This document shows positions 14,397-48,803 of a DNA stretch of 64,000 nt, one piece after another. Position 1 is the first letter of the stretch, and every line of letters starts with the position of its first letter. Below the pieces are notes generated by a model, which saw nothing but the letters and a program-made list of their open reading frames with translations, was not told where the DNA came from and made no database searches. Source of the DNA: a virus; the IMG/VR virus record IMGVR_UViG_3300032291_002681, positions 27,071 to 91,070 of that record; one strand, 5' to 3'. Made by a program: the position numbers and the translations under genes.

Positions 14397-14999
14397 ATGA
14401 AAAAAATCAGTACCCTTATAGGTTTCCTACTTGTTTCGTTAATTTCGTTTGGACAAGATGTTAGAATTAAAAACGAAGTATTTGAAGTTCTTTATTCTCA
14501 ATCATTGGAACAACCCCTAATAATTAAATATCGTTCAACTAATAGACCTACAAATGTGAACAGGGGTACAATGGATTTCTATAAAGAACCAACGATTAAA
14601 ACATCGGATGCGGCTGATTACAAATCAAACATATATGATAAAGGACATGGAGCTCCAGCAGCATCATTTTCTGATAATATGGTAAACCTAAAACAAACAT
14701 TCTCATATTTAAATTGTATAATGCAAGACCAATACCTTAATAGAGGTGAGTGGAGATTGTTAGAAGAACAAATTCGTAAATGGGATGATACTGAAAATAT
14801 AACTGTACTAATAAAAACATTCTTTGATACACCTGTAAAACGAGTACCAACTGGAGCGGCAATTCCATCTTACTTACAAAAGCATGTTTATTTTGAAAAA
14901 AGTAACAAATGGAAATGTTTTGTATTTCTAAATCAAAAACCAAAATTTCATTGGGATGAGTTAGAAATGATATGCGAAGACGAAGACCACAAATTTTAA
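14397..14999 (+). CDS. Secreted DNA/RNA non-specific endonuclease (NucA/Serratia family)
   Basis: DKGHGAPA (DRGH-like) and N..Q...LNRG.W..LE motifs. N-terminal signal peptide MKKISTLIGFLLVSLISFG|Q. Confidence 0.85.
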   Translation: MKKISTLIGFLLVSLISFGQDVRIKNEVFEVLYSQSLEQPLIIKYRSTNRPTNVNRGTMDFYKEPTIKTSDAADYKSNIYDKGHGAPAASFSDNMVNLKQTFSYLNCIMQDQYLNRGEWRLLEEQIRKWDDTENITVLIKTFFDTPVKRVPTGAAIPSYLQKHVYFEKSNKWKCFVFLNQKPKFHWDELEMICEDEDHKF

Positions 15000-19697: not shown

Positions 19698-20099
19698 ATG
19701 TTTATACCAAATCATTTACATTTACTTGTAAAAGGATACATAAAAACCCCACCACAAACCGAAAACGTATTAAACGAATGGTTTAGACAATTAGTTACTA
19801 AGGTAGGAATGAAAGTGGTAGCAGGACCTACATCAGTTTATGTGAATGAACCTGGCAACGAAGGAATAACTGGAACTGTGACCCTAGCAACATCGCATGC
19901 TAGTATTCACGTTTGGGATAACGAAAATCCAGCTATGTTTCAATTTGATTTATATAGTTGTTCGGATTTTACACCAACGCAAGTATTAGACCATATTGAT
20001 GAATGGTTTGAATTAAATGAAGCCTATTGGCAGTTTATAGATAGAAACGGAAGTACCTTTGAATTAGTAAATTCTGGGCATTTCACAAAAAACAAATAA
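19698..20099 (+). CDS. speD: S-adenosylmethionine decarboxylase proenzyme
   Basis: GITGTVTLATSHASIHVW...FDLYSC matches the class 1 AdoMetDC self-cleavage region (TSH in place of the usual ESH). Confidence 0.8.
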   Translation: MFIPNHLHLLVKGYIKTPPQTENVLNEWFRQLVTKVGMKVVAGPTSVYVNEPGNEGITGTVTLATSHASIHVWDNENPAMFQFDLYSCSDFTPTQVLDHIDEWFELNEAYWQFIDRNGSTFELVNSGHFTKNK

Positions 20100-30085: not shown

Positions 30086-30349
30086 ATGTTAGAAGTTAAA
30101 AGATTTTCGGCAGTATGGTGTGGACCGTGTAGAGCATTAGCACCTGTAATGGAAGGTATTAAAAATGAATATACCAATGTGGTATTTGAAACTATTGATG
30201 TGGATGTAGACCACGAACAAGCATCTCAATTCGGGATACGTTCAGTACCAACTGTTGTATTTGTAAAAGATGGGGTTGAAGTTAATAGATTAGTGGGAGT
30301 AAATTCAAAATTAGCTTATGTTAATTCAATAAATGAGCATTTAAAATAA
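30086..30349 (+). CDS. trxA: Thioredoxin
   Basis: WCGPC and cis-Pro SVPT. Confidence 0.95.
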   Translation: MLEVKRFSAVWCGPCRALAPVMEGIKNEYTNVVFETIDVDVDHEQASQFGIRSVPTVVFVKDGVEVNRLVGVNSKLAYVNSINEHLK

Positions 30350-30380
30350 TTGGTAATATCAAAAAGTTTTCGTAAATTTG
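30349..30380 (+). promoter_or_regulatory. Bacteroidota-type promoter for the asnB-like operon
   Basis: ATTG-N20-TAAATTTG, with the ATG 4 nt downstream. Confidence 0.65.
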
Positions 30381-30384
30381 TTAT

Positions 30385-31842
30385 ATGTGTGGAATCATAG
30401 GCGGTAATTGGTTTAGTTCGGAAGAACAAACTCATACCCATTTAAATAAAATAATTCATAGGGGTAGAGATGCTTCCGAAGTGGATGTTGTAGATACTTT
30501 CTACATTGGACATAATCGTCTTTCAATACAAGACCTGTCATCAACTGCAAATCAACCAATGTGGAATGATGACAGGACAGTTTGTATTGTGTATAATGGT
30601 GAGCTATGGGAGAGTTCTCATACCGAAGAACTAAAAAATAGTATCAAAACACCATTCAAAACGAAATCAGATACCGAAATAATCTTAAATGCATATTTGG
30701 ATTATGGAACTGAATCATTCAAAGATTTGGATGGTATGTTTTCGTTTGCAATAGTTGATAGTAAACTTAATAAAGTATTTGTTGTTAGAGATTATGTAGG
30801 AGAATTACCTTTGTGGTATGCAATTGATAATGATAATAAATTAGTATTTTGTTCAGAAAAGAAAGGATTGCCTATTTCAGATTTATATGAGAAGCAAGTA
30901 AAGGCAATATATCCAGGTACATTTTTAGAATACAATTACAAAACATTAGAACATACGATTAAAACATATTACAAACTTCCAACTGAAATAATAAACGATG
31001 ATAGAGAAACTATCGTTAAGAATATTAGAACAATGATGGAAGAAGCTGTAAAAGTTAAAATGGTATCGGATGTTCCTATTTGTACAATTTTAAGTGGTGG
31101 TATCGATTCGGTTATTACAACATACATACTTTCAAAAATCAAACCAGATATCCAAGCATTCGTTGTATCAATGGGTGATGGTGATACTAAAAATGATGAT
31201 ATAAAGTATGCAAGAATTGCAGCTAAAGAATTTGGTGTAACACTACATGAAATTATTTTAACCGAACAAGATGTTGAAGATGCTATCAATGAAACTCTCT
31301 ATGTGATTGAACAAAGTAGATGGCAAAATGTTGGTAGTGCAATTGCACAAATAGCATTATCTAAAAAGATAAATGAGCTAGGATTCAAAGTTGTATTTAG
31401 TGGTGACCTATCTGATGAAATTTGGGGGAGTTATGGACATATTCAAGCGTTTCATTGGAGACCTGAAGATTATGATAAGGCTAGAAGAAAATTGGTAGAG
31501 GATGTGCATAAAACGAACTTTTTAACAACAAATCAATCTATTATGTGGGGTGGAACCGTTGAGGTAAGAACTCCATATAGTTGGAGACCGTTTGTAGAAT
31601 ACACATTAAATATTCCACCATTATATCAGAAAGAAGGTGGGCACATGAAACCTCTATTAAGAGCTGCATTCAAAGGGGAGATTTCAGACGAACTATTATA
31701 TAGACCAAAAGTTTACTTTGCAAAAGGATGTAGAACCGGTGATATGATGGAAGCCAAAAAAAATATTTTGAAATCTCAATTAAAATCACTATATTTGTAT
31801 AAAGACGAAATAAACTTAAATAAATTCTTTCAATATGCTTAA
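30385..31842 (+). CDS. Asparagine synthetase B-like glutamine amidotransferase
   Basis: N-terminal MCGI (Ntn Cys), HRG, HNRLSI.D, NGE, SDTE, PP-loop LSGGIDS, SGD.SDE, EVRTPY. Confidence 0.9.
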   Translation: MCGIIGGNWFSSEEQTHTHLNKIIHRGRDASEVDVVDTFYIGHNRLSIQDLSSTANQPMWNDDRTVCIVYNGELWESSHTEELKNSIKTPFKTKSDTEIILNAYLDYGTESFKDLDGMFSFAIVDSKLNKVFVVRDYVGELPLWYAIDNDNKLVFCSEKKGLPISDLYEKQVKAIYPGTFLEYNYKTLEHTIKTYYKLPTEIINDDRETIVKNIRTMMEEAVKVKMVSDVPICTILSGGIDSVITTYILSKIKPDIQAFVVSMGDGDTKNDDIKYARIAAKEFGVTLHEIILTEQDVEDAINETLYVIEQSRWQNVGSAIAQIALSKKINELGFKVVFSGDLSDEIWGSYGHIQAFHWRPEDYDKARRKLVEDVHKTNFLTTNQSIMWGGTVEVRTPYSWRPFVEYTLNIPPLYQKEGGHMKPLLRAAFKGEISDELLYRPKVYFAKGCRTGDMMEAKKNILKSQLKSLYLYKDEINLNKFFQYA

Positions 31843-32356
31843 TTTTGTAAAAGCCGAAAAAGGTACATCCGAAATGATAGAAGCCGTTAATCAAGCTTCA
31901 ACCATCATTGATTTGTATCCTGAAATATTTCCACACTTATATAAACAAGGATTTAAGTTGGAAAAGTATATTGAAAAAGGTGGTATGATACTTCAGGATG
32001 GAGTTGTTATTACTTTTGGAAAATATAAATCTCATGGTAGAATGAGTAAAAACGCTACCACTTATAAAAAGAAAGGTGATTACATTTTACATCAAATTGC
32101 AACTAATCATTCCAAATCAAACGCATCGATAGAAGTTTTGAATAAGTTTGTAGAATATTGTAAAGAACAACATGCAGAAAACTTATTCTTAACTGTTAGA
32201 GCATTCAATTATAGAGCAGTACTTTTCTATGAAAGATATGGATTCGTAAAAGATAGTGATATAACTTGGACTAGTAAAAAAGATGGAGTTATAAATGGGA
32301 TTGTGTTTAGATTAAGATTGGTTGCAAATAAAAATATAGAAACAGTATGTATTTAG
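31835..32356 (+). CDS. GNAT-family acetyltransferase
   Basis: LHQIA...LTVRAFNYRAVLFYERYGF GNAT motif B. Overlaps both neighbours. Confidence 0.8.
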   Translation: MLNFVKAEKGTSEMIEAVNQASTIIDLYPEIFPHLYKQGFKLEKYIEKGGMILQDGVVITFGKYKSHGRMSKNATTYKKKGDYILHQIATNHSKSNASIEVLNKFVEYCKEQHAENLFLTVRAFNYRAVLFYERYGFVKDSDITWTSKKDGVINGIVFRLRLVANKNIETVCI

Positions 32357-33576
32357 AATATTTTGATAAATTCAAAGGAATGACTCCGTATCTTCACATA
32401 AATTCCGAAGAATGGAAACACATCAAACTTACATTTGATGTTAATGATGTTAAAGAATCATTAGCAGAGGTAAGTATGACTTATGAGTTACCATACGCGG
32501 ATATTAGCGAAGATGATGCAAGAAAAGAATATCTTGCACTTAAAGGCATTCGTTGGAATGAATTATTTACTGAAGGAGAATGGTTTCCGAGAAAAGCATC
32601 CGATTTCAGATATAGTTTAGATTTTCAAGGTAAACCACAATACATTCGTAGATTAAATACGGGTAACGATGCATCGAATCATTTCCAACAATCAAATCGT
32701 TGGAGTGTAGACGGTACCGTTTCACCTGGACCAAAAAGAACTTGGGCAAGTAAAGAGTTTATGACAACTCTGATGGGAGGATTATATACTCTTAAATTTG
32801 ATGAAGTTGGTAGAAACCAACTAAGAGTGTGTTTGAGTTTAAGAAAATATATTTGTTCACAATTTAAACCAAATGCTGCAAAAGTATTATACGATTTTTA
32901 TGAAGCTAAAAACGTATTAGACATATCAGCGGGATGGGGTGATAGATTGTGTGGATTCTTTGCATCTGAATTCGGAGAACATTATGTAGGCATTGACCCT
33001 AGAAAAGAAAATCATCCAATCTACAATCAACAGGCTGAATTTTATACTAAACACAATTCATTCTTTGAAACTGAAAAGAAAGCGGATTTTATAGAATCAC
33101 CTGCCGAAGATGCGGATTTAACTCAATATAAAGACCACTTTGATATAGTATTTAGTTCACCTCCGTATTTCAATGTAGAACGATATTCATACGATGATAC
33201 TCAAAGTTGGGTAAGATACAAAAATATAGATGCATGGAATAAAGAATTCTTGCATAAAACAATTGCAAATGTATGGCCTACTTTGAAGAAAGGCGGTATA
33301 TTGGCAGTTAATATTGCAGATGTATATGCATCATCGAAAGGTGATGGTAAAGGCTATAAGGAAATTTGTAATCCAATGAATGATTTCATTCAAACATTAG
33401 GTGCAGAATACGAAGGGTGCTTGGGAATGGAAATGGCGAAAAGACCTGGTAGTGCTGGTGCAGCTTCTATTATAGAAGGGGATGAGGAAAGGTATAGTGA
33501 AGAAGCGTTAAAAAAGGCAGAAGAAGCGGGTGATAAAACATTTTGTGAACCTATCTGGATATGGAAGAAGTTATGA
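32347..33576 (+). CDS. SAM-dependent amino-DNA methyltransferase-like protein 1
   Basis: Motif I DISAGWGDRL, GIDP, catalytic FSSPPYF. Confidence 0.8.
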   Translation: MYLEYFDKFKGMTPYLHINSEEWKHIKLTFDVNDVKESLAEVSMTYELPYADISEDDARKEYLALKGIRWNELFTEGEWFPRKASDFRYSLDFQGKPQYIRRLNTGNDASNHFQQSNRWSVDGTVSPGPKRTWASKEFMTTLMGGLYTLKFDEVGRNQLRVCLSLRKYICSQFKPNAAKVLYDFYEAKNVLDISAGWGDRLCGFFASEFGEHYVGIDPRKENHPIYNQQAEFYTKHNSFFETEKKADFIESPAEDADLTQYKDHFDIVFSSPPYFNVERYSYDDTQSWVRYKNIDAWNKEFLHKTIANVWPTLKKGGILAVNIADVYASSKGDGKGYKEICNPMNDFIQTLGAEYEGCLGMEMAKRPGSAGAASIIEGDEERYSEEALKKAEEAGDKTFCEPIWIWKKL

Positions 33577-34787
33577 TAAAAGAATATTTTAAAAAGTTTT
33601 ATGGAATGGAACCGTATCTTCGTATTGAAAAAGACGAATGGCAGACTATTCTTAAAACTTATACAAAAGAAGAAATCATAGATGAACTTTCAGAAGTATT
33701 ACACACATACCCACCACCAATTCCGAATATTACGGAAGAAGATACTTTAGATGCTTATAAAAAACTAAAAGGTACTTGGTGGCCAGATATTTTGGTAGAA
33801 GGTAAATGGTTTCCACGCAATGAACGAGTATCGAAATATCCATTAACTTACGATGGTTCTGAATTTTATTTTAGAAGAACTAATGTAGGTAATAATGCAT
33901 CCAACCCATTTCACATAGAAAATCGTTGGAAGGTTGATTGGGTGAGAACGCCATCGGGTTGGAAAACTTGGCAAACGGTAGATGGTATTAAAACGATTGT
34001 GAGAGCATATTTTACTTTGGATAAAATGTTGTTAGATGTGAATTTGGAAACTTTGAAAATGGCAACAACATTAAGAAAGTATGTAGCATCACAATTTAAA
34101 CCTGTTATAGCAAAAGCATTCTATGATAAATTTCAGAGTGTTAATGTTATGGATTTTTCAGCAGGATGGGGTGACCGATTGGCTGGATTTTTTGCAGGAG
34201 AAACAACAAAATTTTATTTAGGTATAGACCCAAATAGTAGTAATCATCCTAACTACCAAAAACAAATTGAATTCTATAAAAAACATACAACATTTTTTGA
34301 AGAAGATAAAGATGCAAAAATGTTAGAAGCGGCAGCGGAAGATGTAGATTATTCGGAGTATGAAAACTTCTTTGATACAATCTTTACTTCACCGCCATAT
34401 TTTAATACCGAAAGATATAGCTTTGATGATACTCAAAGTTGGATTAGGTATAAAAAGTTTGATGATTGGAACAAAGGGTTCTTTCATACAACTTTGGAAA
34501 AAATTATACCTACACTTAAAAAGGATGGTATATTGGCAATCAATATTGCGGATGTATTTTCTGCACCTGATAAGGGGTATGTAGATATAGTCAATTCTAT
34601 GAACGATTTCCTCCATTCTAAGGGGTTATCTTATAAAGGGTGTATTGGTATGGAAATGACAAAAAGACCCAACAGCGGAGGTGCTGGGATGGCGGTATCG
34701 GAGTATTATTCCGATGAATTGAAAGAAAAGGCGGAAGAAACGAAAAATCACGCATTTGGAGAACCAATTTGGATTTGGCAAAAATAA
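33573..34787 (+). CDS. SAM-dependent amino-DNA methyltransferase-like protein 2 (paralog of 1)
   Basis: DFSAGWGDRL, GIDP, FTSPPYF. ATGA overlap with the upstream gene. Confidence 0.8.
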   Translation: MIKEYFKKFYGMEPYLRIEKDEWQTILKTYTKEEIIDELSEVLHTYPPPIPNITEEDTLDAYKKLKGTWWPDILVEGKWFPRNERVSKYPLTYDGSEFYFRRTNVGNNASNPFHIENRWKVDWVRTPSGWKTWQTVDGIKTIVRAYFTLDKMLLDVNLETLKMATTLRKYVASQFKPVIAKAFYDKFQSVNVMDFSAGWGDRLAGFFAGETTKFYLGIDPNSSNHPNYQKQIEFYKKHTTFFEEDKDAKMLEAAAEDVDYSEYENFFDTIFTSPPYFNTERYSFDDTQSWIRYKKFDDWNKGFFHTTLEKIIPTLKKDGILAINIADVFSAPDKGYVDIVNSMNDFLHSKGLSYKGCIGMEMTKRPNSGGAGMAVSEYYSDELKEKAEETKNHAFGEPIWIWQK

Positions 34788-34788
34788 A

Positions 34789-34820
34789 TTTGGTTTATTC
34801 AATAAAAAATCGTATATTTG
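34789..34820 (+). promoter_or_regulatory. Bacteroidota-type promoter
   Basis: TTTG-N20-TATATTTG. Confidence 0.78.
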
Positions 34821-34853
34821 TATTCACAATTTAAAATTTAAACATAAACAAAC

Positions 34854-35573
34854 ATGAACAAAGCAAAACTTACAAGGTTCATCCAAAAGTACAGTTTGGG
34901 TGGGTTAGTAGAATCGGTAACATTGAAAGCAGGAGATAACAAATTAGTTACTCGTTTTATTTCAGATGACAAGACTGTATTAGGTGAAATTGAATTAGAA
35001 AAATTCACATTTAATTCTCCTGATTTAGGAGTGTACACAACATCTCAATTATCAAAACTACTTTCAGTAGTTGGTGAAGATATTGAATTGGATGTGCAAG
35101 AAATCGAAGGTAAAGCGGTAAACCTTTTCATTAAGAGTGGTTCTACCAAAGTTCAATATCCATTGGCAGATTTGGCAGTTATTCCAAATGTACCGGATTT
35201 AAAAAAACTTCCAGAATTTGATATTGATATCAATTTCGATGGTGCGTTTATTGACAAATTTATCAAAGCTAAAAACGCGTTGAGTGATGTAGATACTTTT
35301 ACTGTGTTAAGTGAAAAAGGACAATTAAAAATTGTACTAGGATATTCAAATATTAATTCAACTAGAGTTGATTTTGTAGTAAATGAATCACATAGTGGTG
35401 ATGTAAAACCAATTTCATTCTCTGCTAAGTATTTGAAAGAAATCTTAACCGCAAATAAAGAAGCAACTGCAGTTGTACTTAAAGTATCAACACAAGGTAT
35501 TTCGCATGTTGAATTCAAAATTGATGATTTTACAGCAAAATACTTCTTAGTAGAACAACAATTATCAGCATAA
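34854..35573 (+). CDS. DNA polymerase sliding clamp (T4 gp45/PCNA-like)
   Basis: 239 aa, two-domain beta/alpha pattern, FSAKYL...ISHVEF...KYFLV end. Near PolB and the clamp loader. Confidence 0.8.
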   Translation: MNKAKLTRFIQKYSLGGLVESVTLKAGDNKLVTRFISDDKTVLGEIELEKFTFNSPDLGVYTTSQLSKLLSVVGEDIELDVQEIEGKAVNLFIKSGSTKVQYPLADLAVIPNVPDLKKLPEFDIDINFDGAFIDKFIKAKNALSDVDTFTVLSEKGQLKIVLGYSNINSTRVDFVVNESHSGDVKPISFSAKYLKEILTANKEATAVVLKVSTQGISHVEFKIDDFTAKYFLVEQQLSA

Positions 35574-37144
35574 TGAGTTTTAACTATAAGAAAAAATATT
35601 TCTATGAAAAGAATGACTGGTTGTACGAACCGGAAGTAAACTTATTATACGAAGATGTTCTCAAAATGCCATTCGCTGATTTTGAAAAGTGGGTGGCATT
35701 TTTCAGAGAACTTGCAGTAAGAGTTTGGAATGAAACTGGCGCACCACCTCGTATCGGAGTAGACGAAGGCGAGATGATTGAGCAGTTTTCTAAACTACAA
35801 ACTTACAAAGTAGAAAGGTTTGAAGAAAAAGATGACGATGGAAATGAAGTTATTTTTAATTTTAATAAGTTTGCAACACCAGTAAATCAATTCTTTCCTG
35901 CAATGTATAAGACTGGAATTGGTGGTTCGGCATACGATAAACCAAAACCATCTATATACGATGTATTTGCAGATGATACCTATTTGCCAGAATTTGTCAA
36001 ACAAATGAGAAGATTGACAAGACAAGATGGTATGTATCGTTTTTCCAAAACCTTACATTTGGATAATCCAGAATTCCATAACTCGCACATTCAAAGTGGT
36101 AAGGAGTGGATTGAAAAATGGGCAGCTGGTAATAAAAAAGAAGGGTATGGGTTTTGTTTATCACAAGCGGATAGCAAAGTTCCATCACCACCAATTACCG
36201 CACAAGAAGTTAGGGACCTGTATAATGCCGGTATATTAAAGTATGAAAACATATCTTCATTAAAAACTGCCGATTGGGGTGAGAATATTGATAATTTAAT
36301 TGATGTTCCAAAACAACCAATTCAGATTAAAATATATCCATTAGGACAGAGAATATTTCCTGAAGCAACTGCAGCATTTCGTATTGGTATGGGTACACAA
36401 GCGGTTGTAAACTTTCCACCACTTACTGCGAAGTATCTTTACAAAAGATTTACTGACCATATCAAAGAGCAAGATGTGATAAACATTTATGACCCATCTG
36501 CGGGTTGGGGCGGTAGAATATTAGGAGCATTGAGTCTTGATGATAGAAATGTTCATTACATAGGAAATGACCCTAATACTGAAAACTACATTGAAGAAAT
36601 TGGAAAAACTCGTTACGAATATCTTGCCGAATTCTTTAACAATAAAGTACCTGGTGCGGCAAATCCTTTTTGGGGACACGCTAATACCTACGAAATATTT
36701 ACAACGGGTTCAGAAGTTATTTCAGATGATGAAAGATTCCAAAAATATAAGGGTAAATTAGATTTCGCATTTACTTCACCACCGTATTTTGATAGAGAAA
36801 GATATTCGGATGATGATACACAATCGTTTAAGAAATTCGGAAACTATGAAAGTTGGAGAGATGGGTTCTTAAGACCAACACTAACAACAATTTATGAATA
36901 TCTTCGTAATGATAGATATGTTTGTTGGAATATCGCTGATATTAAAGTTGGACCTGATAAATTCTATCCATTAGAACAGGATAGTATTGATATACTTACC
37001 CAATTAGGATGTGAGTATAAAGGCAAATTAAGAATGACAATGAGTCCAATGACCGGAATGGATTTATCCAAAGCGAAAAATTGTATGCAGATTGAAGGAC
37101 AATTTTACAAATACGAACCAATTTTTATATTTTATAAACCATAA
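35573..37144 (+). CDS. SAM-dependent amino-DNA methyltransferase-like protein 3
   Basis: DPSAGWGGRI, GNDP, FTSPPYF. TAATG overlap with the clamp gene. Confidence 0.8.
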   Translation: MSFNYKKKYFYEKNDWLYEPEVNLLYEDVLKMPFADFEKWVAFFRELAVRVWNETGAPPRIGVDEGEMIEQFSKLQTYKVERFEEKDDDGNEVIFNFNKFATPVNQFFPAMYKTGIGGSAYDKPKPSIYDVFADDTYLPEFVKQMRRLTRQDGMYRFSKTLHLDNPEFHNSHIQSGKEWIEKWAAGNKKEGYGFCLSQADSKVPSPPITAQEVRDLYNAGILKYENISSLKTADWGENIDNLIDVPKQPIQIKIYPLGQRIFPEATAAFRIGMGTQAVVNFPPLTAKYLYKRFTDHIKEQDVINIYDPSAGWGGRILGALSLDDRNVHYIGNDPNTENYIEEIGKTRYEYLAEFFNNKVPGAANPFWGHANTYEIFTTGSEVISDDERFQKYKGKLDFAFTSPPYFDRERYSDDDTQSFKKFGNYESWRDGFLRPTLTTIYEYLRNDRYVCWNIADIKVGPDKFYPLEQDSIDILTQLGCEYKGKLRMTMSPMTGMDLSKAKNCMQIEGQFYKYEPIFIFYKP

Positions 37145-37152
37145 CATAATAG

Positions 37153-39705
37153 ATGTACCAAAACATTTTCTTTGAAAGAAATAGAAATTTAATTCACTTA
37201 TGGGATGACACTTTAGGGTATCGCACATTTCCATACAAAAAATACGCATATATTAAAGACCCAAATGGTCAATATGAATCTATGTATGGAGACCGTTTAA
37301 CTAAAGTGTTTAAATGGGAAAAAGATAGTGGTGAAGAATTGTTTGAATCAGATGTACCAGAAACCACAAGAGTTTTGGTTGACCTATATCAAGATGATGT
37401 GCCATCTAAAGGGCATATTGTTTTAACATTTGATATTGAGGTTGAAATGATTACTGGCTTACCAAACATTGAAAAAGCTGAAAACGAAATTACCTCAATA
37501 GCAGCATACGATGATGCTACAAAAGAGTATCATGTATTTGTTGTAGATAAGAAAGGCAAAGTAAATGGTAAATCATTTCAAAAAGATGGTAAAGATGTGC
37601 ATGTTCATATCTTCGGTAGTGAACGTGATTTGTTGATGAAATACTTAACTTATGTTGAAAGTGTAAACGCAACAATTTGGACGGGGTGGAATATTGACTT
37701 CTTTGACGTTCCATATCTTTACAATCGTATTAAAAATGTGTGTGGTGAAAATCAAGCCAATCGTTTATCTTGTATAGGTAAAACATATTGGTCACCTTAT
37801 CGTAATCGTTATAGTATTGCTGGTGTGAGTATTATGGACTATATTGGGTTGTATAAAAGATATAACTTTGGTTTAGAAAGTTCATACACATTAAATCATA
37901 TTGCTATAAAAGAATTAGGTAGGGGTAAAGTTGAATACGAAGGAAGTTTGGATGACTTATTTGAAAATGATTTAGAGAAGTTTATTGAATATAATATTAC
38001 CGATGTTGAGTTGGTTGTATCAATGGATACGAAACTTCAATTTATTGAATTAAGTAGAGCAATTTGCCATTCTGGTTTCACACCATACGAAGATTATATC
38101 TTTTCATCAAAATATTTGGAAGGAGCGTGTTTGGCATATCTCAAAAAGAAGGGATTAGTAGCACCTAACAAACCCAAAAACCACAAAGATAAACTCGCAG
38201 AACAAGCGGAGGCCGGTGAGGAAAAATTCATAGGTGCGTATGTTAAAGAACCTATTGTTGGTAAGTATGATTGGATTTATGATTTGGATTTAACATCACT
38301 ATATCCATCAATCATTATGACTCTAAACATTAGTCCAGAAACTAAAGTTGGTAAAATTAAAGATTGGGACCCCGAATCTTGGGTTAGAGGTGAAAATAGA
38401 CAATATACTGTTGTTGGTAAGACAAAAGAGTTTACATACAATAGAACCGAATTAGAAGAAGTAATTAAAGATAATCAATTAGGAGTAGCTGCAAATGGTG
38501 TTTTATATACTCAAAAGAAGCCCGGTTTGATTGCAGATATTTTGGATACTTGGTTCAAACAAAGAGTTGAATTTAGAAAATTAGAAACGAAGTATGGTGA
38601 AGCGGGTGATACTGAAAAATATGAATTCTATGGTAAAAGACAATTGGTACAAAAGATTCTTTTGAACTCAATGTATGGTGTGTTAGGACTTGTTGCGTTT
38701 AGATTCTATGATATTGATAATGCAGAAGCTGTTACTATTACCGGTCAAACTGTGATTAAGAAAACTGCAGAAATGGCAAATCTTAAATACCAAAAAGAAC
38801 TTAGTACAAAAGAAGACTATAATGTTTACATTGATACTGATTCAATTTATATGATGGCTGAACCGTTGGTTAAGTTTAGATATCCTGAATATAAAACATT
38901 TGACCAAACTAGAATGGCAGCTGAAGTAAATACAATTGCAGAAGAAACTCAATCATTCTTAAATTCATTTTATAATTTATTGGCGGAAAGATTCTTTTGT
39001 ATCCCAAAAGAAAAACATCGTTTTGAAATTAAGAAAGAATACATCAGTAAAGCAGGATTTTGGGTAGCAAAGAAACGATATGCCCAATGGATGATTTTAA
39101 AGAATGGTATTCCATGTGATAAGTTGGATGTAAAAGGATTGGATGTAGTTCGTTCATCATTCCCCAAAGCATTTCAGGATTTTATGGCTAAGATGTTAAA
39201 AGAAATCCTAATGGGTAAAACAAACGAAGAAATAAATGAATCACTTTTGGAATTTAAAAAGAGTTTACCAAATCTTCGTATTAATAAAATCGCCAAAGGT
39301 GGGGCTATTAAAGAATTAACTAAATATGATAAAGGTAAGTGGAGAAAGGATAGTGGATTAGCTATTGCTAATTTTGAAAAAGGAACTCCTGCACACGTTA
39401 AAGCCGGTATCACTTATAACCGATTATTGAAATTCTTTGAATGCCCGTTTAAGTACGAACCAATTAGAGATGGTGAAAAAGTTAAATGGGTATATCTTAA
39501 AAGTAATCCATTGGGAATAGAAACATTGGCATTCAGAGATTATAATGACCCAAAAGAGATTATGGATTTTGTAGAACAATATGTTGATAGAGATGGAATT
39601 TATAAAGCGGAATTGGAAAACAAATTAACTGATTTCTATAACGCTCTAAAATGGGAAATGGCATCCGCCGATTCTCAAAACGCAAAAAAGTTTTTTGAAT
39701 TCTAA
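37153..39705 (+). CDS. Family B DNA polymerase (T4 gp43-like)
   Basis: Exo FDIE, GWN...FD, YN..D; pol DLTSLYPSII, KILLNSMYG, YIDTDS, KKRY. Confidence 0.97.
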   Translation: MYQNIFFERNRNLIHLWDDTLGYRTFPYKKYAYIKDPNGQYESMYGDRLTKVFKWEKDSGEELFESDVPETTRVLVDLYQDDVPSKGHIVLTFDIEVEMITGLPNIEKAENEITSIAAYDDATKEYHVFVVDKKGKVNGKSFQKDGKDVHVHIFGSERDLLMKYLTYVESVNATIWTGWNIDFFDVPYLYNRIKNVCGENQANRLSCIGKTYWSPYRNRYSIAGVSIMDYIGLYKRYNFGLESSYTLNHIAIKELGRGKVEYEGSLDDLFENDLEKFIEYNITDVELVVSMDTKLQFIELSRAICHSGFTPYEDYIFSSKYLEGACLAYLKKKGLVAPNKPKNHKDKLAEQAEAGEEKFIGAYVKEPIVGKYDWIYDLDLTSLYPSIIMTLNISPETKVGKIKDWDPESWVRGENRQYTVVGKTKEFTYNRTELEEVIKDNQLGVAANGVLYTQKKPGLIADILDTWFKQRVEFRKLETKYGEAGDTEKYEFYGKRQLVQKILLNSMYGVLGLVAFRFYDIDNAEAVTITGQTVIKKTAEMANLKYQKELSTKEDYNVYIDTDSIYMMAEPLVKFRYPEYKTFDQTRMAAEVNTIAEETQSFLNSFYNLLAERFFCIPKEKHRFEIKKEYISKAGFWVAKKRYAQWMILKNGIPCDKLDVKGLDVVRSSFPKAFQDFMAKMLKEILMGKTNEEINESLLEFKKSLPNLRINKIAKGGAIKELTKYDKGKWRKDSGLAIANFEKGTPAHVKAGITYNRLLKFFECPFKYEPIRDGEKVKWVYLKSNPLGIETLAFRDYNDPKEIMDFVEQYVDRDGIYKAELENKLTDFYNALKWEMASADSQNAKKFFEF

Positions 39706-39743: not shown

Positions 39744-40109
39744 ATGGCAAAGGCTAAAAAAACAAAAAAAGAAGAAGTAAAGATTGAAGAACAATCTGAA
39801 CAATTACAACCAACAATTGCATTATCACAAAAAAAGTATGAAGATTGTGAATGGTGTTTTCAATTTGATGAAGATGAACCACAAATATTTGCATGGACAG
39901 ATAATGAATCGGATAAAAATGAAGACCCTAAAGTAATTTTTACAATTACAAATGTTGAGAATTCATACATAACTTTTCAGAATGGAAAGACTGGTAAAGT
40001 ATTCAAACTATTTGCAAGGGAACTTACTAATGAAGGTATTGAATTAAGAAATAAACAAAAACAAGCTTTTAAAACTATTGAAAATGCAAGTGAAAATAAA
40101 GAGGCTTAA
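39744..40109 (+). CDS. Hypothetical protein
   Basis: 121-aa ORF downstream of the promoter. Confidence 0.7.
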   Translation: MAKAKKTKKEEVKIEEQSEQLQPTIALSQKKYEDCEWCFQFDEDEPQIFAWTDNESDKNEDPKVIFTITNVENSYITFQNGKTGKVFKLFARELTNEGIELRNKQKQAFKTIENASENKEA

Positions 40110-40548
40110 GCCTAATGCAGTAATTCCTACTTACGCTAAAGAAGGTGATGCTGGTATGGATTTAGTAGCAACGGAAATCATCAAAGATACACCCGAACAA
40201 ATAACGTATGGTACGGGATTGGCTATGGAAATTAGAGATGGATTTGTTGGATTGGTATTCCCTCGTTCATCAATCCGAAAGACTGGTTTACAATTAAGTA
40301 ATTCGGTTGGAGTAATTGATAGTGGATATAGAGGTGAAATTCAAGCTACATTTAATAAAGTATTTGGCGGTGACCGTTTTTATGATGAAACAAAAAATAC
40401 GGAAGATACATCAAATAACTTCTATAAAGTAGGTGATAGAATTGCACAAATTATGATTATCCCACATCCACAAATTGAATTTCACGAAGTAGATGAACTT
40501 TCGAATTCAGAAAGAGGTGAAGGTGGATTTGGTTCAACTGGTAAATAA
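40084..40548 (+). CDS. dut: dUTPase (trimeric)
   Basis: AGMDL, PRSS, GVIDSGYRGEI, RIAQ, RGEGGFGSTG. Confidence 0.97.
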   Translation: MQVKIKRLKPNAVIPTYAKEGDAGMDLVATEIIKDTPEQITYGTGLAMEIRDGFVGLVFPRSSIRKTGLQLSNSVGVIDSGYRGEIQATFNKVFGGDRFYDETKNTEDTSNNFYKVGDRIAQIMIIPHPQIEFHEVDELSNSERGEGGFGSTGK

Positions 40549-46625: not shown

Positions 46626-48803
46626 ATGGCATTAACTAAACGTCTAACAAAAGGGTCTCCACTTACCGCCGGGGAGATGGATAATAATTTAGATTATCTG
46701 GAAAGCTTATTAGAAGCTGGTACGAGTGGAACATCTGGTACATCCGGTTCAAGTGGCACATCCGGAACATCCGGTTCAAGTGGAACTAGTGGAACATCTG
46801 GAACGGGAACTGCAGGAACTGCGGGAAGTTCAGGTACATCTGGAACTAGTGGAACTAGTGGAACATCTGGAACAAGCGGTACATCTGGTACATCTGGTAC
46901 ATCTGGAATTAAAGGTGATTTATTTCAATCAACATCATCAAACTCTTTAAATTTAACTACACTTACTGATAGTGATACTATTTCAATTACAATAGGAACT
47001 GGGTTGTCTTGGACACCTGGTCAACAAATGATAGTAGCTAATACTGCAACTAATAAATTAGATGTTACTGTATTAACATATAATTCGGCAAACGGACTTC
47101 TCACAGCTGATATTGATACTGGTGGTGTGAGTGGTAGTGGTACATATACTTCTTGGAGTATAAATACAAAAGGTGCTACGGGACAGGCTGGTACATCTGG
47201 TTCTTCTGGCACATCTGGAATTAATGGAACATCTGGAAGTGGCGGTACATCTGGAATCGATAGTACATCTGGAAGCGGAGGAACTTCTGGTACATCAGGA
47301 ACTTCTGGTACATCAGGAACTTCTGGAACTTCTGGTACATCAGGAACTTCTGGAACATCGGGCACATCAGGAACTTCTGGTACATCAGGAACAAATGCAA
47401 CTGCAGGAACTTCCGGTACATCGGGAACAAGTGGAACTTCCGGTACATCGGGAACAAGTGGTGCAGGTACATCTGGTACATCCGGAACTTCTGGAACATC
47501 TGGTACATCCGGAACTTCTGGAACAAGTGGGTCTGGAACTTCTGGTACATCTGGAACAAGTGGTGCAGGTGCAACTATAACTGGAAATACACCTAATGGA
47601 GTAATAACATATAATGCAGCGCCTGTTGGGTTTAATGTAGAAAGTAATCTTCAATTTGATGGGGGTTTATTATTAGTAGAGGGTGATATATCGGCATCTG
47701 GTACATTTACCGCTTCATTATCAAGTGGATATACTTGGGTTGGTGGTGCTGGTAATAGAGCTAGATTGGTAGCAACCTCATCGTTTGGTGGTGGAACTGC
47801 AACTACCGATGGTATATTTAAAACAACTGGTTCAGTTGTAGCAACAACAAACGCTGTACAAATTACTGGCTCATTGGATATAGATGGACCTATGACCGCA
47901 TCTTTAAGACAAGGATATGTTTGGGTTGGTGGAAATACGAGTAAAAATAATTTACAAGTAGCAACATCATCATTGGGTAGTGCATTAACATTACAGGATG
48001 GAATACCAACAATAGTTCCTTCTGTAAATAGAATAGTATTTAGTGGTGCAACCGTTACCAATAATAGTGGTGGCCAAGTTACTGTTACAATTACAGGTGG
48101 AGGCGGAGGTGGTACATCTGGAACTTCTGGTGTTAATGGATTAAATGGAGTTGCCGGTACAAATGGAACATCGGGAGTAAATGGTTCATCGGGGTTTGGT
48201 TCTAATGGTACTAGTGGTTCAAGTGGAGTATCTGGTACAAATGGACCGGCTGGTACATCTGGTACAAGTGGAGTAGATGGTATTGGTACTAACGGTACAT
48301 CTGGTACATCTGGTGTTGGTACAAATGGAGTTAATGGTTCTGCCGGTACTGATGGAACTTCCGGAACATCTGGTACATCCGGTGGTACTGGTAGTAATGG
48401 TGTTAATGGAACATCCGGTACATCGGGAACAAACGGAAGTTCTGGTATAACCGGAGGTGGTGGTACAGCAGGTACATCTGGTACATCTGGAACGTCTGGT
48501 ACAACTGGATTATTATCATTAAGTGGTACAGCTAATAATGGAGTTATTACTTATGATGGTGTAGTTACAACTGGAGTTGTTGAATCTGCGCTTACATTTG
48601 ATTCAACCACTCGTACGTTGGAATTAAGTGGTTCGGCAGATATATATGCAGCAGCTAGAATAAGAGGTACACTATGGGCAGGTAATACTGCACCAGCAAC
48701 TATAACTGCAGCAATTGGAACATTGGTAGTATCACAATCATTGGGTGGTGATAGAGGTGACTTGATGTATTATAATGGCGCATCTTGGGTTAAAATAGCA
48801 TAA
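46626..48803 (+). CDS. Gly-X-Y (GTS) repeat fibre protein, collagen-like
   Basis: N-terminal KGSPLT..EMD.N anchor-like motif. Three blocks of (G-T-S)n / G-X-N triplets separated by beta-rich domains. Upstream ATATTTAT. Confidence 0.75.
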   Translation: MALTKRLTKGSPLTAGEMDNNLDYLESLLEAGTSGTSGTSGSSGTSGTSGSSGTSGTSGTGTAGTAGSSGTSGTSGTSGTSGTSGTSGTSGTSGIKGDLFQSTSSNSLNLTTLTDSDTISITIGTGLSWTPGQQMIVANTATNKLDVTVLTYNSANGLLTADIDTGGVSGSGTYTSWSINTKGATGQAGTSGSSGTSGINGTSGSGGTSGIDSTSGSGGTSGTSGTSGTSGTSGTSGTSGTSGTSGTSGTSGTSGTNATAGTSGTSGTSGTSGTSGTSGAGTSGTSGTSGTSGTSGTSGTSGSGTSGTSGTSGAGATITGNTPNGVITYNAAPVGFNVESNLQFDGGLLLVEGDISASGTFTASLSSGYTWVGGAGNRARLVATSSFGGGTATTDGIFKTTGSVVATTNAVQITGSLDIDGPMTASLRQGYVWVGGNTSKNNLQVATSSLGSALTLQDGIPTIVPSVNRIVFSGATVTNNSGGQVTVTITGGGGGGTSGTSGVNGLNGVAGTNGTSGVNGSSGFGSNGTSGSSGVSGTNGPAGTSGTSGVDGIGTNGTSGTSGVGTNGVNGSAGTDGTSGTSGTSGGTGSNGVNGTSGTSGTNGSSGITGGGGTAGTSGTSGTSGTTGLLSLSGTANNGVITYDGVVTTGVVESALTFDSTTRTLELSGSADIYAAARIRGTLWAGNTAPATITAAIGTLVVSQSLGGDRGDLMYYNGASWVKIA
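46716..48510 (+). repeat. Three blocks of 9-nt coding repeats (GGW ACW TCH/AGT = Gly-Thr-Ser)
   Basis: Blocks at about 46716-46910, 47180-47570 and 48100-48510, with synonymous variation. Confidence 0.92.

What the first reader, a model, noticed from the sequence alone, without database searches (positions are those of the whole stretch)
30349..37144. Candidate new DNA-modification system: AsnB-like amidotransferase + GNAT + three paralogous SPPY methyltransferases woven into the replisome genes
Seen: one promoter precedes overlapping genes for an AsnB-like enzyme, a GNAT and two paralogous MTases (D.SAGWG, G.DP, SPPYF). A third paralog is coupled to the sliding clamp gene (TAATG) and lies 8 nt before PolB. 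The block is flanked by RNR/thioredoxin and dUTPase. Established: SPPY marks amino (N4C/N6A) DNA MTase folds; AsnB-fold enzymes amidate carboxylates using ATP and Gln; Mu Mom is a GNAT-fold DNA-modifying enzyme. Inference: asparagine supply is an unlikely role here. The set may build a hypermodified base, for example a SAM-derived group (methyl, aminocarboxypropyl, or aminopropyl from dcSAM made by the phage SpeD) whose carboxyl is amidated and amine acetylated. I do not recognise this combination as a described pathway.
Basis: partly seen in the sequence, partly recalled or inferred. Interest (0 to 1): 0.82.

Follow-up and report, generated by a model that had tools for sequence, protein, structure and literature searches.

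The report
Replisome-linked candidate phage DNA hypermodification cassette
An uncultured lake phage carries, inside its DNA-replication genes, an asparagine-synthetase-like amidotransferase, a small acetyltransferase and three related methyltransferase-like enzymes; the amidotransferase ends in the same short tail as the phage's DNA polymerase, so the set probably decorates newly made phage DNA with an undescribed amide-bearing group, but no chemistry has been measured.

Summary
The genes, the three paralogues, their motifs, the overlapping starts and stops, and the flanking RNR, thioredoxin and dUTPase genes are all present. Only the single promoter is unsupported.

- The AsnB-like enzyme keeps its glutaminase and PP-loop residues but has lost AsnB's aspartate-site residues.
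- Its best match in a cultured phage lies between a CmoX-like and a CmoA-like gene. That pathway is the one in which an AsnB homologue amidates a carboxylated DNA base.
- AsnB and PolB are the only proteins of this phage that end in a C-terminal KFF tail. In T4/RB69-type phages the polymerase tail docks on the sliding clamp.
- In 34 of 47 related loci, a gene of the methyltransferase family follows the clamp gene directly.
- AsnB and GNAT co-occur in 35 of 35 loci and move together with MT1. Some relatives carry a different amidotransferase + PLP-enzyme cassette instead, and some have MT1 alone.
- No CmoA gene is present.

My reading is a clamp-coupled DNA base modification system whose adduct carries a carboxylate and an amine. 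A SAM-derived aminocarboxypropyl group is the simplest candidate but is unproven.

This scan found the same cassette earlier on other DNA, so the finding is not new to the scan. I found no paper that describes it.

The parts
30086..30349 (+). Thioredoxin, the upstream neighbour of the cassette
   Evidence: Pfam Thioredoxin 9.9e-20. A thioredoxin gene precedes the cassette or MT1 in most related loci.
30385..31842 (+). AsnB-like glutamine-dependent amidotransferase (type A)
   Evidence: Asn_synthase 1.2e-46, GATase_7 1.4e-30. E. coli AsnB 1ct9 at E 2.1e-47. Starts MCGI and has the SGGIDS PP-loop. Aspartate-site residues are replaced.
31822..31839 (+). C-terminal KFFQYA tail of AsnB; putative clamp-docking motif
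   Evidence: Only AsnB and PolB, out of 83 ORFs in the phage's own 91-kb record, end in KFF (expected 0.1). The tail is present in all type A AsnB proteins.
31835..32356 (+). GNAT-fold N-acetyltransferase
   Evidence: Acetyltransf_10 1.2e-4; Acetyltransf_1 20.7 bits at the cut-off. Atlas neighbours are viral N-acetyltransferase clusters. Co-occurs with type A AsnB in 35 of 35 loci.
32347..33576 (+). MT1, amino-methyltransferase-like enzyme (motif I before SPPYF)
   Evidence: AlphaFold2 model pLDDT 93. Best structural matches are Trm11, TrmN and METTL5 at Z 15-16.
33561..34787 (+). MT2, paralogue of MT1 (50% identity)
   Evidence: N6_N4_Mtase 27.2 bits, above the 26.7 cut-off.
34854..35573 (+). 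gp45-like sliding clamp
   Evidence: PCNA_C 0.003 and phrog_947 3.3e-5. The profile hits only the RB69 clamp 1b77/1b8h, E 0.007.
35573..37144 (+). MT3, third paralogue with a different N-terminal half; its start overlaps the clamp stop
   Evidence: In 34 of 47 related loci the clamp gene is followed at -1 to +3 nt by a gene of this family.
37153..39705 (+). Family B DNA polymerase ending in KKFFEF
   Evidence: DNA_pol_B 3.3e-36, phrog_262 2.9e-182. Tail shown.
19698..20099 (+). SpeD (S-adenosylmethionine decarboxylase); any link to the cassette is unproven
   Evidence: AdoMet_dc 1.2e-13.
40078..40548 (+). dUTPase, downstream flank
   Evidence: dUTPase 2.3e-22.

Best explanation
This is a virus-specific DNA base modification module that works at the replication fork.

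Shown here:
- The gene content.
- The paralogy of the three methyltransferase-like enzymes.
- The loss of AsnB's aspartate site.
- The KFF tail shared by AsnB and PolB.
- The conserved clamp-to-MT gene coupling.
- The block behaviour of AsnB-GNAT-MT1.

Inferred mechanism:
1. One or more of the three methyltransferase-like enzymes use SAM to place a group on an exocyclic amine of a DNA base. They are permuted relatives of N6/N4 DNA methyltransferases. MT2 and MT3 carry the FTSPPY form typical of N4-cytosine enzymes.
2. The AsnB-like enzyme is tethered to the sliding clamp by a polymerase-like C-terminal KFF tail. It adenylates a carboxylate on that adduct and converts it to a carboxamide with ammonia from glutamine.
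3. The GNAT acetylates an amine of the same adduct.

Most speculative step: the group is the 3-amino-3-carboxypropyl moiety of SAM. It is the only SAM-derived group that offers both a carboxylate and an amine, and the complete relatives encode no other supplier.
For: 1. AsnB is an active-looking amidotransferase but not an asparagine synthetase.
- Cys2, R/N/D of the glutaminase site and the SGGxDS loop are kept.
- T322Q, T323N, R325G, E349D, D385N and R388T are changed relative to E. coli AsnB.
- The last ~70 residues are replaced by a short tail.

2. Precedent.
- CmoY, an AsnB homologue, ligates glycine to 5-carboxymethylcytosine in DNA. A glutaminase-bearing subgroup was predicted to amidate it (PMC12783734).
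- The best cultured-phage match of the window's AsnB is Streptomyces phage TurkishDelight gp124 (30% identity, E 1e-46). It sits between an SPPC C5-methyltransferase and a CmoA-like gene.
- A GNAT that acetylates an amine on a DNA base is known: PaMx11 gp48 (PMC8989533).

3. Clamp link.
- In the phage's own record, only AsnB (..NKFFQYA) and PolB (..KKFFEF) of 83 ORFs end in KFF, against 0.1 expected.
- The same holds in complete relatives G001 and G002.
- Across 80 loci the tail occurs in PolB 40 of 56, AsnB 33 of 52 (every type A protein), GNAT 4 of 35 and the P-loop-GNAT protein of the other cassette 3 times. It occurs in 3 of 1289 other ORFs and in 0 of 136 MTs.
- The clamp is gp45-like. 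By established knowledge, the C-terminal tail of T4/RB69 polymerase binds gp45.

4. A gene of the MT family directly follows the clamp gene in 34 of 47 loci.

5. AsnB and GNAT co-occur in 35 of 35 loci. AsnB-GNAT-MT1(-MT2) moves as one block to a different place in L035-L041, L044 and L074.

6. An amidotransferase of this kind is present in 23 of 26 long relatives and in 5 of 5 complete ones. It is always paired with an enzyme that acts on an alpha-amine: GNAT, or a PLP enzyme.

7. Fusion proteins.
- The PLP domain of the alternative cassette is also found fused to an MT-family domain (E 2e-9).
- MT domains are fused to GNAT and to ATP-grasp amide ligases, and to ParB/HTH DNA-binding domains.

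8. No other gene apart from GNAT distinguishes the AsnB+GNAT genomes, and no CmoA is present.
Against: - No chemical data exist.
- MT1 occurs without any amidotransferase cassette in 10 of 42 well-flanked loci. It also occurs alone in cultured Vibrio, Bacteroides and Staphylococcus phages. The MTs can therefore work alone and may simply methylate.
- One relative keeps its amidotransferase about 80 kb from MT1.
- The MT fold matches are generic (flat list, Z 13-16). The closest are RNA m2G and m6A enzymes.
- In giant-virus-like contigs the MT domain is fused to mRNA-capping modules.
- The TTL-GNAT-MT fusion comes from a contig with Ras and ankyrin genes. That is a different biological setting, and those partner domains usually act on proteins.
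- The KFF tail is a sequence resemblance; binding is not shown.
- The AsnB similarity to TurkishDelight gp124 is no stronger than to cellular AsnB.
Confidence: 0.5

Rival explanations
1. Two independent functions lie side by side. The three MTs are ordinary DNA methyltransferases (m4C or m6A) that protect the phage from restriction. AsnB+GNAT is a separate, exchangeable module acting on another DNA or nucleotide substrate, not on the MT product.
For: - The MT family is very large (9554 clusters at E<1e-3) and mostly stands alone.
- 10 of 42 MT1 loci lack a cassette.
- AsnB+GNAT is swapped for TS-like + AsnB' + PLP enzyme in relatives. There, the TS-like enzyme could supply a C5-substituted pyrimidine.
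- The profile's only PDB sequence hits are to DNA N4/N6 methyltransferases.
Against: - The AsnB+GNAT genomes contain no TS-like, kinase or CmoA gene that could supply a carboxylated base.
- AsnB-GNAT-MT1 moves as a block with overlapping genes.
- MT domains are fused to GNAT, amide-ligase and PLP domains elsewhere.
Confidence: 0.25
2. The enzymes modify proteins rather than DNA, for example the clamp or clamp-bound replisome or host proteins. The reactions would be (N/S)PPY-type glutamine or amine methylation, N-terminal or lysine acetylation, and amidation of a carboxylate.
For: - PrmC/HemK-type protein methyltransferases appear among the fold matches.
- The fusion partners TTL and RimJ-like GNAT are typical protein-end modifiers, and that contig looks eukaryote-associated.
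- A clamp-binding tail could equally serve to find a protein substrate.
Against: - Other family members carry ParB and HTH fusions.
- The motif IV region is similar to that of DNA N4/N6 methyltransferases.
- The published precedents for AsnB-like and GNAT enzymes in phages are on DNA bases (PMC12783734, PMC8989533).
Confidence: 0.08
3. The MTs act on RNA (tRNA, rRNA or phage transcripts), like their best structural matches, and have no role in DNA modification.
For: - The top structural matches are tRNA m2G and rRNA m6A enzymes.
- In long homologues the MT domain is fused to mRNA capping, PCIF1-like, VP39-like and FtsJ modules.
Against: - No THUMP-like or other RNA-binding fold was found in the N-terminal 170 residues (inconclusive).
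- Conserved coupling to the clamp gene.
- ParB/HTH fusions.
- Bacteria have no caps of that kind.
Confidence: 0.06
4. AsnB is an auxiliary metabolic gene that makes asparagine, or part of the phage's glycan pathway (like PseA in acetamidino sugar synthesis), and GNAT is a sugar or small-molecule acetyltransferase.
For: - Public sources name the protein asparagine synthase.
- In Synechococcus phage S-SCSM1 an AsnB homologue lies inside a glycosyltransferase cluster.
- This window has a large glycosylation island with its own GNAT at 43410-63752.
Against: - The aspartate-site residues are lost.
- The gene lies 11 kb from the glycan island, inside the replication operon, in all relatives.
- The polymerase-like C-terminal tail is unexplained by this reading.
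Confidence: 0.05

Closest known systems
CmoA/CmoX/CmoY pathway of Synechococcus phage S-B43 and the TurkishDelight-type variant (Yang et al. 2025, PMC12783734)
   Same: A SAM-family transferase installs a handle on a DNA base, and an asparagine-synthetase homologue converts its carboxylate to an amide. The window's AsnB is 30% identical (E 1e-46) to TurkishDelight gp124, the glutaminase-bearing form.
   Different: - No CmoA in the phage's own record or in five complete relatives.
- The transferases are SPPY amino-type enzymes, not SPPC C5-cytosine enzymes.
- A GNAT is an obligatory partner.
- AsnB carries a polymerase-like tail.
- The authors state that they found no N6- or N4-carboxymethyltransferase candidates.
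Thymidine hypermodification pathways of phages M6, ViI and PaMx11 (Lee et al., PMC5889632, PMC8989533)
   Same: Post-replicative tailoring of an amino-acid-like appendage on a DNA base. The enzymes include a GNAT (PaMx11 gp48) and PLP enzymes.
   Different: The window has no dUMP hydroxymethylase, no 5-hmdU DNA kinase and no amino-acid:DNA transferase. Those pathways contain no amidotransferase.
N6/N4 DNA amino-methyltransferases (Pfam N6_N4_Mtase; e.g. PDB 2zie, 8s9n)
   Same: (S/T)SPPY(F/W)..RY motif IV region and a class I SAM fold.
   Different: - Motif I precedes motif IV (a permuted order).
- There is a family-specific N-terminal ~170 residues with no fold match.
- Only one of the three paralogues reaches the Pfam cut-off.
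- Activity is untested.
Phage Mu Mom (N6-carbamoylmethyladenine)
   Same: An acyltransferase-fold enzyme produces an amide-bearing group on an exocyclic amine of a DNA base.
   Different: Mom works alone and uses charged tRNA (10.1101/2023.03.24.534169, PMC13219725; abstracts). The window's GNAT has no detectable sequence match in 50,697 phage records.
T4/RB69 gp43-gp45 polymerase-clamp docking
   Same: An extreme C-terminal aromatic tail on the polymerase and a gp45-like clamp.
   Different: Here a metabolic-type enzyme (AsnB-like), and in some relatives the GNAT, carry the same tail. Binding has not been shown.

Membership tests
Asparagine synthetase B (glutamine-hydrolysing) | N-terminal Cys nucleophile and glutamine-site residues | tested here: met
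   Starts MCGI; HRGRD, HNRLSI, NGEL and SDTE are aligned with E. coli AsnB.
Asparagine synthetase B (glutamine-hydrolysing) | PP-loop SGGxDS for ATP | tested here: met
   SGGIDS is invariant in the alignment.
Asparagine synthetase B (glutamine-hydrolysing) | Aspartate-binding residues (E. coli T322, T323, R325, D385, R388; residue roles recalled from the literature) | tested here: not met
   They are Q, N, G, N and T in the window protein and its type A relatives.
CmoA/CmoX/CmoY DNA carboxymethylation-amidation | [quoted passage not shown] | tested here: not met
   TIGR00740 has no match in the phage's own record or in five complete relatives. The same search finds it in TurkishDelight.
CmoA/CmoX/CmoY DNA carboxymethylation-amidation | C5-cytosine transferase with an SPPC motif | tested here: not met
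   The three transferases carry SPPY, not SPPC. TurkishDelight gp123 carries SPPC.
CmoA/CmoX/CmoY DNA carboxymethylation-amidation | AsnB-homologous AMP-forming amide-forming enzyme next to the transferase | tested here: met
N6/N4 DNA amino-methyltransferases (PF01555) | Score above the Pfam gathering cut-off | tested here: inconclusive
   MT2 scores 27.2, MT1 24.9 and MT3 18.0 bits against a cut-off of 26.7. Only the motif IV region matches.
N6/N4 DNA amino-methyltransferases (PF01555) | (D/N/S)PP(Y/F) catalytic motif and a SAM-binding motif I | tested here: met
   SPPYF and D.SAGWG are invariant in 3, 16 and 57 sequences.
N6/N4 DNA amino-methyltransferases (PF01555) | Methyl transfer to DNA | not testable with these tools
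   Needs an enzyme assay or nucleoside mass spectrometry.
GNAT acetyltransferases | Acetyl-CoA-binding core recognised by family profiles | tested here: met
   The evidence is borderline. Acetyltransf_1 scores 20.7 bits at the 20.7 cut-off, and Acetyltransf_10 is at 1.2e-4. PHROG acetyltransferase families match at 5e-6. Atlas neighbours are viral N-acetyltransferase clusters at 0.96-0.97.
Clamp-binding proteins of T4-type replisomes | Extreme C-terminal tail like that of the cognate polymerase | tested here: met
   KFF within the last 8 residues occurs only in AsnB and PolB of the phage's own record, and is conserved in all type A AsnB proteins.
Clamp-binding proteins of T4-type replisomes | Physical binding to the clamp | not testable with these tools
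   Needs a pull-down or calorimetry with the tail peptide.
5-hmdU-based thymidine hypermodification | dUMP hydroxymethylase, 5-hmdU DNA kinase and amino-acid:DNA transferase | tested here: not met
   The phage's own record has no Thymidylat_synt match. The near-identical complete relative G001 has only a high-scoring ThyA far from the cassette. No kinase or transferase is among the genes specific to AsnB+GNAT genomes.

The most novel reading that the evidence does not exclude
The SPPY enzymes are the first DNA aminocarboxypropyl transferases. They would move the 3-amino-3-carboxypropyl group of SAM onto an exocyclic amine of a base on nascent DNA. A clamp-tethered amidotransferase and an acetyltransferase would then cap its carboxylate and amine, giving an N-acetyl amino-acid-amide side chain on the DNA of an abundant group of lake phages.
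Probability: 0.15. Interest if true: 0.9.

Novelty: new variant of a known kind. Interest (0 to 1): 0.7.

Why it matters
Phage DNA hypermodifications defeat restriction and CRISPR systems, and they supply enzymes for DNA labelling.

If this reading is right, the cassette would add:
- a new installing enzyme class (amino-type transferases rather than C5 or hydroxymethyl routes);
- a new tailoring pair (a glutamine amidotransferase plus a GNAT);
- a new principle: tailoring enzymes recruited to the sliding clamp by a polymerase-like tail.

The phage group is common. The stretch is held nearly unchanged in lake-water metagenomes of at least 13 studies, and the methyltransferase family has thousands of viral clusters. 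The chemistry would therefore be widespread in nature.

Tried and rejected
- blastn of the block against 50,697 phage records: no match.
- tblastn of the GNAT against the same records: no match.
- Complex prediction of the clamp with AsnB residues 436-485: no verdict (score 0.30, mark 0.32). This counts neither for nor against binding.
- Foldseek against the PDB gave only generic class I methyltransferases.
- The N-terminal 170 residues of MT1 folded alone gave a weaker model (pLDDT 73) and no fold match above Z 4.0.
- A single-sequence PDB search with MT2 gave nothing useful.
- CmoA was searched for and not found.
- A comparison of five complete relatives' proteomes found no extra enzyme specific to AsnB+GNAT genomes.
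- The promoter and terminator scan was no better than chance.
- A search of viral contigs for the TTL-GNAT-MT fusion found none.
- Literature searches for aminocarboxypropyl DNA, for clamp-linked m4C enzymes, and for AsnB together with JBP-type systems found nothing relevant.
- RNA-library contigs of four freshwater studies cover AsnB, the MTs, the clamp and PolB at 90-99% likeness. Such libraries can contain DNA, so transcription is not shown.

Full report
**What is there**

The window is the replication module of an uncultured large phage, and all genes lie on the + strand. In order they are: gp32-like SSB, RecA/UvsX, 5'-3' exonuclease, DnaB helicase, class I RNR small and large subunits, thioredoxin, AsnB-like (30385-31842), GNAT (31835-32356), MT1 (32347-33576), MT2 (33561-34787), sliding clamp (34854-35573), MT3 (35573-37144), PolB (37153-39705), dUTPase, two clamp-loader subunits and a PD-(D/E)XK nuclease.

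- The window is part of a 91-kb IMG/VR record estimated to be 42% complete.
- The nearest cultured phage is Microcystis phage Mel-JY01 (PolB 48% identical). It has thioredoxin, two small genes and PolB, but none of the cassette genes.
- The three methyltransferase-like proteins are true paralogues (50% and 28% identity). Their invariant motifs are D.SAGWG.R, G.DP, SPPYF and NIAD.
- The 'single promoter' is not supported.

**The methyltransferase-like family**

- A profile of 16 members finds 9554 clusters at E<1e-3, and 1600 at E<1e-30, among 1.84 billion representatives. Atlas neighbours are 77-100% viral.
- Pfam sees only the SPPY region of N6_N4_Mtase, and only MT2 reaches the cut-off.
- A 57-sequence profile hits only DNA N4/N6 methyltransferases in the PDB, and weakly: 2zie at E 0.0024 and 8s9n at 0.039. 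These hits show that the domain order is permuted, with motif I before motif IV.
- The AlphaFold2 model is confident (pLDDT 93). Its structural matches form a flat list of class I enzymes, headed by tRNA m2G enzymes (Trm11, TrmN, Trm14; Z 15-16) and METTL5.
- The N-terminal 170 residues have no detectable fold match.
- Longer relatives show what the domain is fused to:
  - ParB-N plus HTH, other HTH domains, and LAGLIDADG endonucleases;
  - a second N6_N4 methyltransferase;
  - fold-II PLP enzymes;
  - GNAT alone, and GNAT plus TTL-type ATP-grasp ligase;
  - in giant-virus-like proteins, mRNA capping, PCIF1-like, VP39-like and FtsJ modules.
- The one TTL-GNAT-MT fusion whose context I could read lies among Ras and ankyrin genes. 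It therefore comes from a different biological setting.

**The AsnB-like enzyme**

- It aligns with E. coli AsnB over residues 23-450 (E 2e-47).
- It keeps the Cys2 nucleophile, the glutamine-site residues and the PP-loop.
- In an 11-sequence alignment that includes E. coli AsnB, the residues I recall as the aspartate site are changed: T322Q, T323N, R325G, E349D, D385N, R388T. The last ~70 residues of AsnB are replaced by a short tail.
- It is very abundant and conserved in metagenomes. More than 120 clusters are at least 73% identical; where sources name it, they call it asparagine synthase.

**Published precedent**

- Yang et al. 2025 (PMC12783734) showed that CmoY, an AsnB homologue, ligates glycine to 5-carboxymethylcytosine in DNA. 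The carboxymethyl group is installed by the C5-methyltransferase homologue CmoX, using Cx-SAM made by CmoA.
- They predicted that a second subgroup, which has a glutaminase domain, amidates the base with ammonia, but could not obtain soluble enzyme.
- They also state that they found no N6- or N4-carboxymethyltransferase candidates.
- The best cultured-phage match of the window's AsnB is Streptomyces phage TurkishDelight gp124. It lies between an SPPC C5-methyltransferase and a CmoA-like gene.
- CmoA is absent from the window's own record and from five complete relatives.
- A GNAT acting on a DNA-borne amine is also known: PaMx11 gp48 (PMC8989533).

**Comparative genomics**

- The MT alignment pulled in more than 568 relatives from IMG/VR; I examined the best 80 loci.
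- AsnB of the window's type and GNAT co-occur in 35 of 35 loci.
- Among 42 loci with at least 6 kb on both sides of MT1:
  - 24 carry AsnB+GNAT;
  - 8 carry a different cassette, built from a 35-41% identical amidotransferase plus a fold-II PLP enzyme (six also have a weak thymidylate-synthase-like protein, and some a P-loop-GNAT protein);
  - 10 carry neither.
- In L035-L041, L044 and L074 the block AsnB-GNAT-MT1(-MT2) sits after the clamp loader instead of before the clamp. It therefore moves as a unit.
- Over whole records, 23 of 26 long relatives and 5 of 5 complete genomes have one of the two amidotransferases.
- Comparing three complete AsnB+GNAT genomes with two genomes of the other type shows only GNAT and a few small or unrelated ORFs as type-specific. 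No further enzyme is dedicated to the AsnB+GNAT type.
- The PLP enzyme of the alternative cassette is homologous to the PLP domain fused to an MT domain in P0107 (E 2e-9). This ties the MT family to the cassette enzymes.

**Link to the replisome**

- PolB ends in ..AKKFFEF and AsnB ends in ..LNKFFQYA.
- In the phage's own 91-kb record these are the only two of 83 ORFs with KFF in the last eight residues, against 0.1 expected.
- In complete relatives G001 and G002 they are the only two of 357 and 231 ORFs.
- Across the 80 loci the tail occurs in PolB 40 of 56, AsnB 33 of 52 (all of the window's type), GNAT 4 of 35 and the P-loop-GNAT protein 3 times. It occurs in 3 of 1289 other ORFs and in none of 136 MTs.
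- The residues before the tail vary while the tail itself is kept.
- The clamp profile matches only the RB69 clamp 1b77/1b8h. By established knowledge, the C-terminal tail of T4/RB69 polymerase docks on that clamp.
- Separately, a gene of the MT family follows the clamp gene at -1 to +3 nt in 34 of 47 loci, although the clamps are only 44-87% identical.

**Reading**

- Both accessory enzyme types act on the functional groups of an amino-acid-like moiety. AsnB acts on a carboxylate; GNAT, or the PLP enzyme, acts on an amine.
- The AsnB+GNAT genomes encode no other candidate supplier of such a moiety than the SAM-using MT-like enzymes.
- The aminocarboxypropyl group of SAM would satisfy both requirements. 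This is an inference by elimination, with no direct support.
- The MTs clearly also exist without the cassette, so plain methylation by the MTs, with AsnB+GNAT acting elsewhere, remains a serious rival.
- Protein or RNA substrates cannot be excluded.

**Occurrence**

- The stretch is held at half or more of its sampled words in 15 runs, mostly lake-water metagenomes. They span 13 studies, one of which is possibly the source of this DNA.
- Short contigs from four freshwater RNA libraries cover all the genes. This does not prove transcription.

**Earlier notes of this scan**

Earlier notes describe the same cassette on other DNA and reach a similar verdict. I used them as leads for the TurkishDelight comparison and the FF-tail idea, and tested both here.

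Noticed in passing
window 43410-63752: A large glycosylation island. It contains several GT1 and GT2 glycosyltransferases, UDP-GlcNAc 2-epimerase, a second GNAT, a DegT aminotransferase, a hexapeptide acyltransferase, a HAD-nucleotidyltransferase and a methyltransferase. They surround a collagen-repeat protein at 46626-48803.
   Followed up: partly
window 14397-14999: A DNA/RNA non-specific endonuclease (Endonuclease_NS 2.2e-20). A phage that degrades unmodified DNA would need its own DNA to be protected.
   Followed up: no
window 19698-20099: An S-adenosylmethionine decarboxylase (SpeD, 1.2e-13).
   Followed up: no
L018:11238-15508 and L020:11245-14280: Alternative cassette in relatives: a weak thymidylate-synthase-like protein (232 aa), a 35% identical amidotransferase and a fold-II PLP enzyme (279 aa). 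In L018 there is also a P-loop + GNAT protein that ends in the polymerase-like KFFQF tail.
   Followed up: partly
G001 155360-157216 (relative with 96% identical MT1): A 618-aa ORF sits where the window has its two class I RNR genes, and the thioredoxin is only 49% identical. A module swap therefore lies right next to the cassette. The ORF was not annotated.
   Followed up: no
P0286-P0288, P0316, P0318, P0321, P0290, P0292: The same methyltransferase-like domain is fused to mRNA capping enzyme, RNA triphosphatase, cap N7-methyltransferase, PCIF1-like and VP39-like modules in 740-2000-aa proteins. Some come from very long contigs (up to 567 kb), probably giant viruses.
   Followed up: partly
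L160:4486-7944: A 1152-aa protein whose precomputed Pfam families are a GNAT (Acetyltransf_3), a TTL-type ATP-grasp ligase and N6_N4_Mtase. It lies on a contig with Ras GTPase and ankyrin-repeat genes.
   Followed up: partly
P0006, P0008, P0130, P0133: LAGLIDADG homing endonuclease domains lie within or ahead of members of the methyltransferase family.
   Followed up: no
L018:18163-19797: A GroEL-type chaperonin gene (Cpn60_TCP1 3.9e-78) lies between PolB and the clamp gene in a 289-kb relative.
   Followed up: no
window 31835-32356 and relatives: Most GNAT proteins end in a conserved ..DKNIETVCI. Four relatives instead end in a KFF tail like PolB's. The meaning of the first ending is unknown.
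   Followed up: partly
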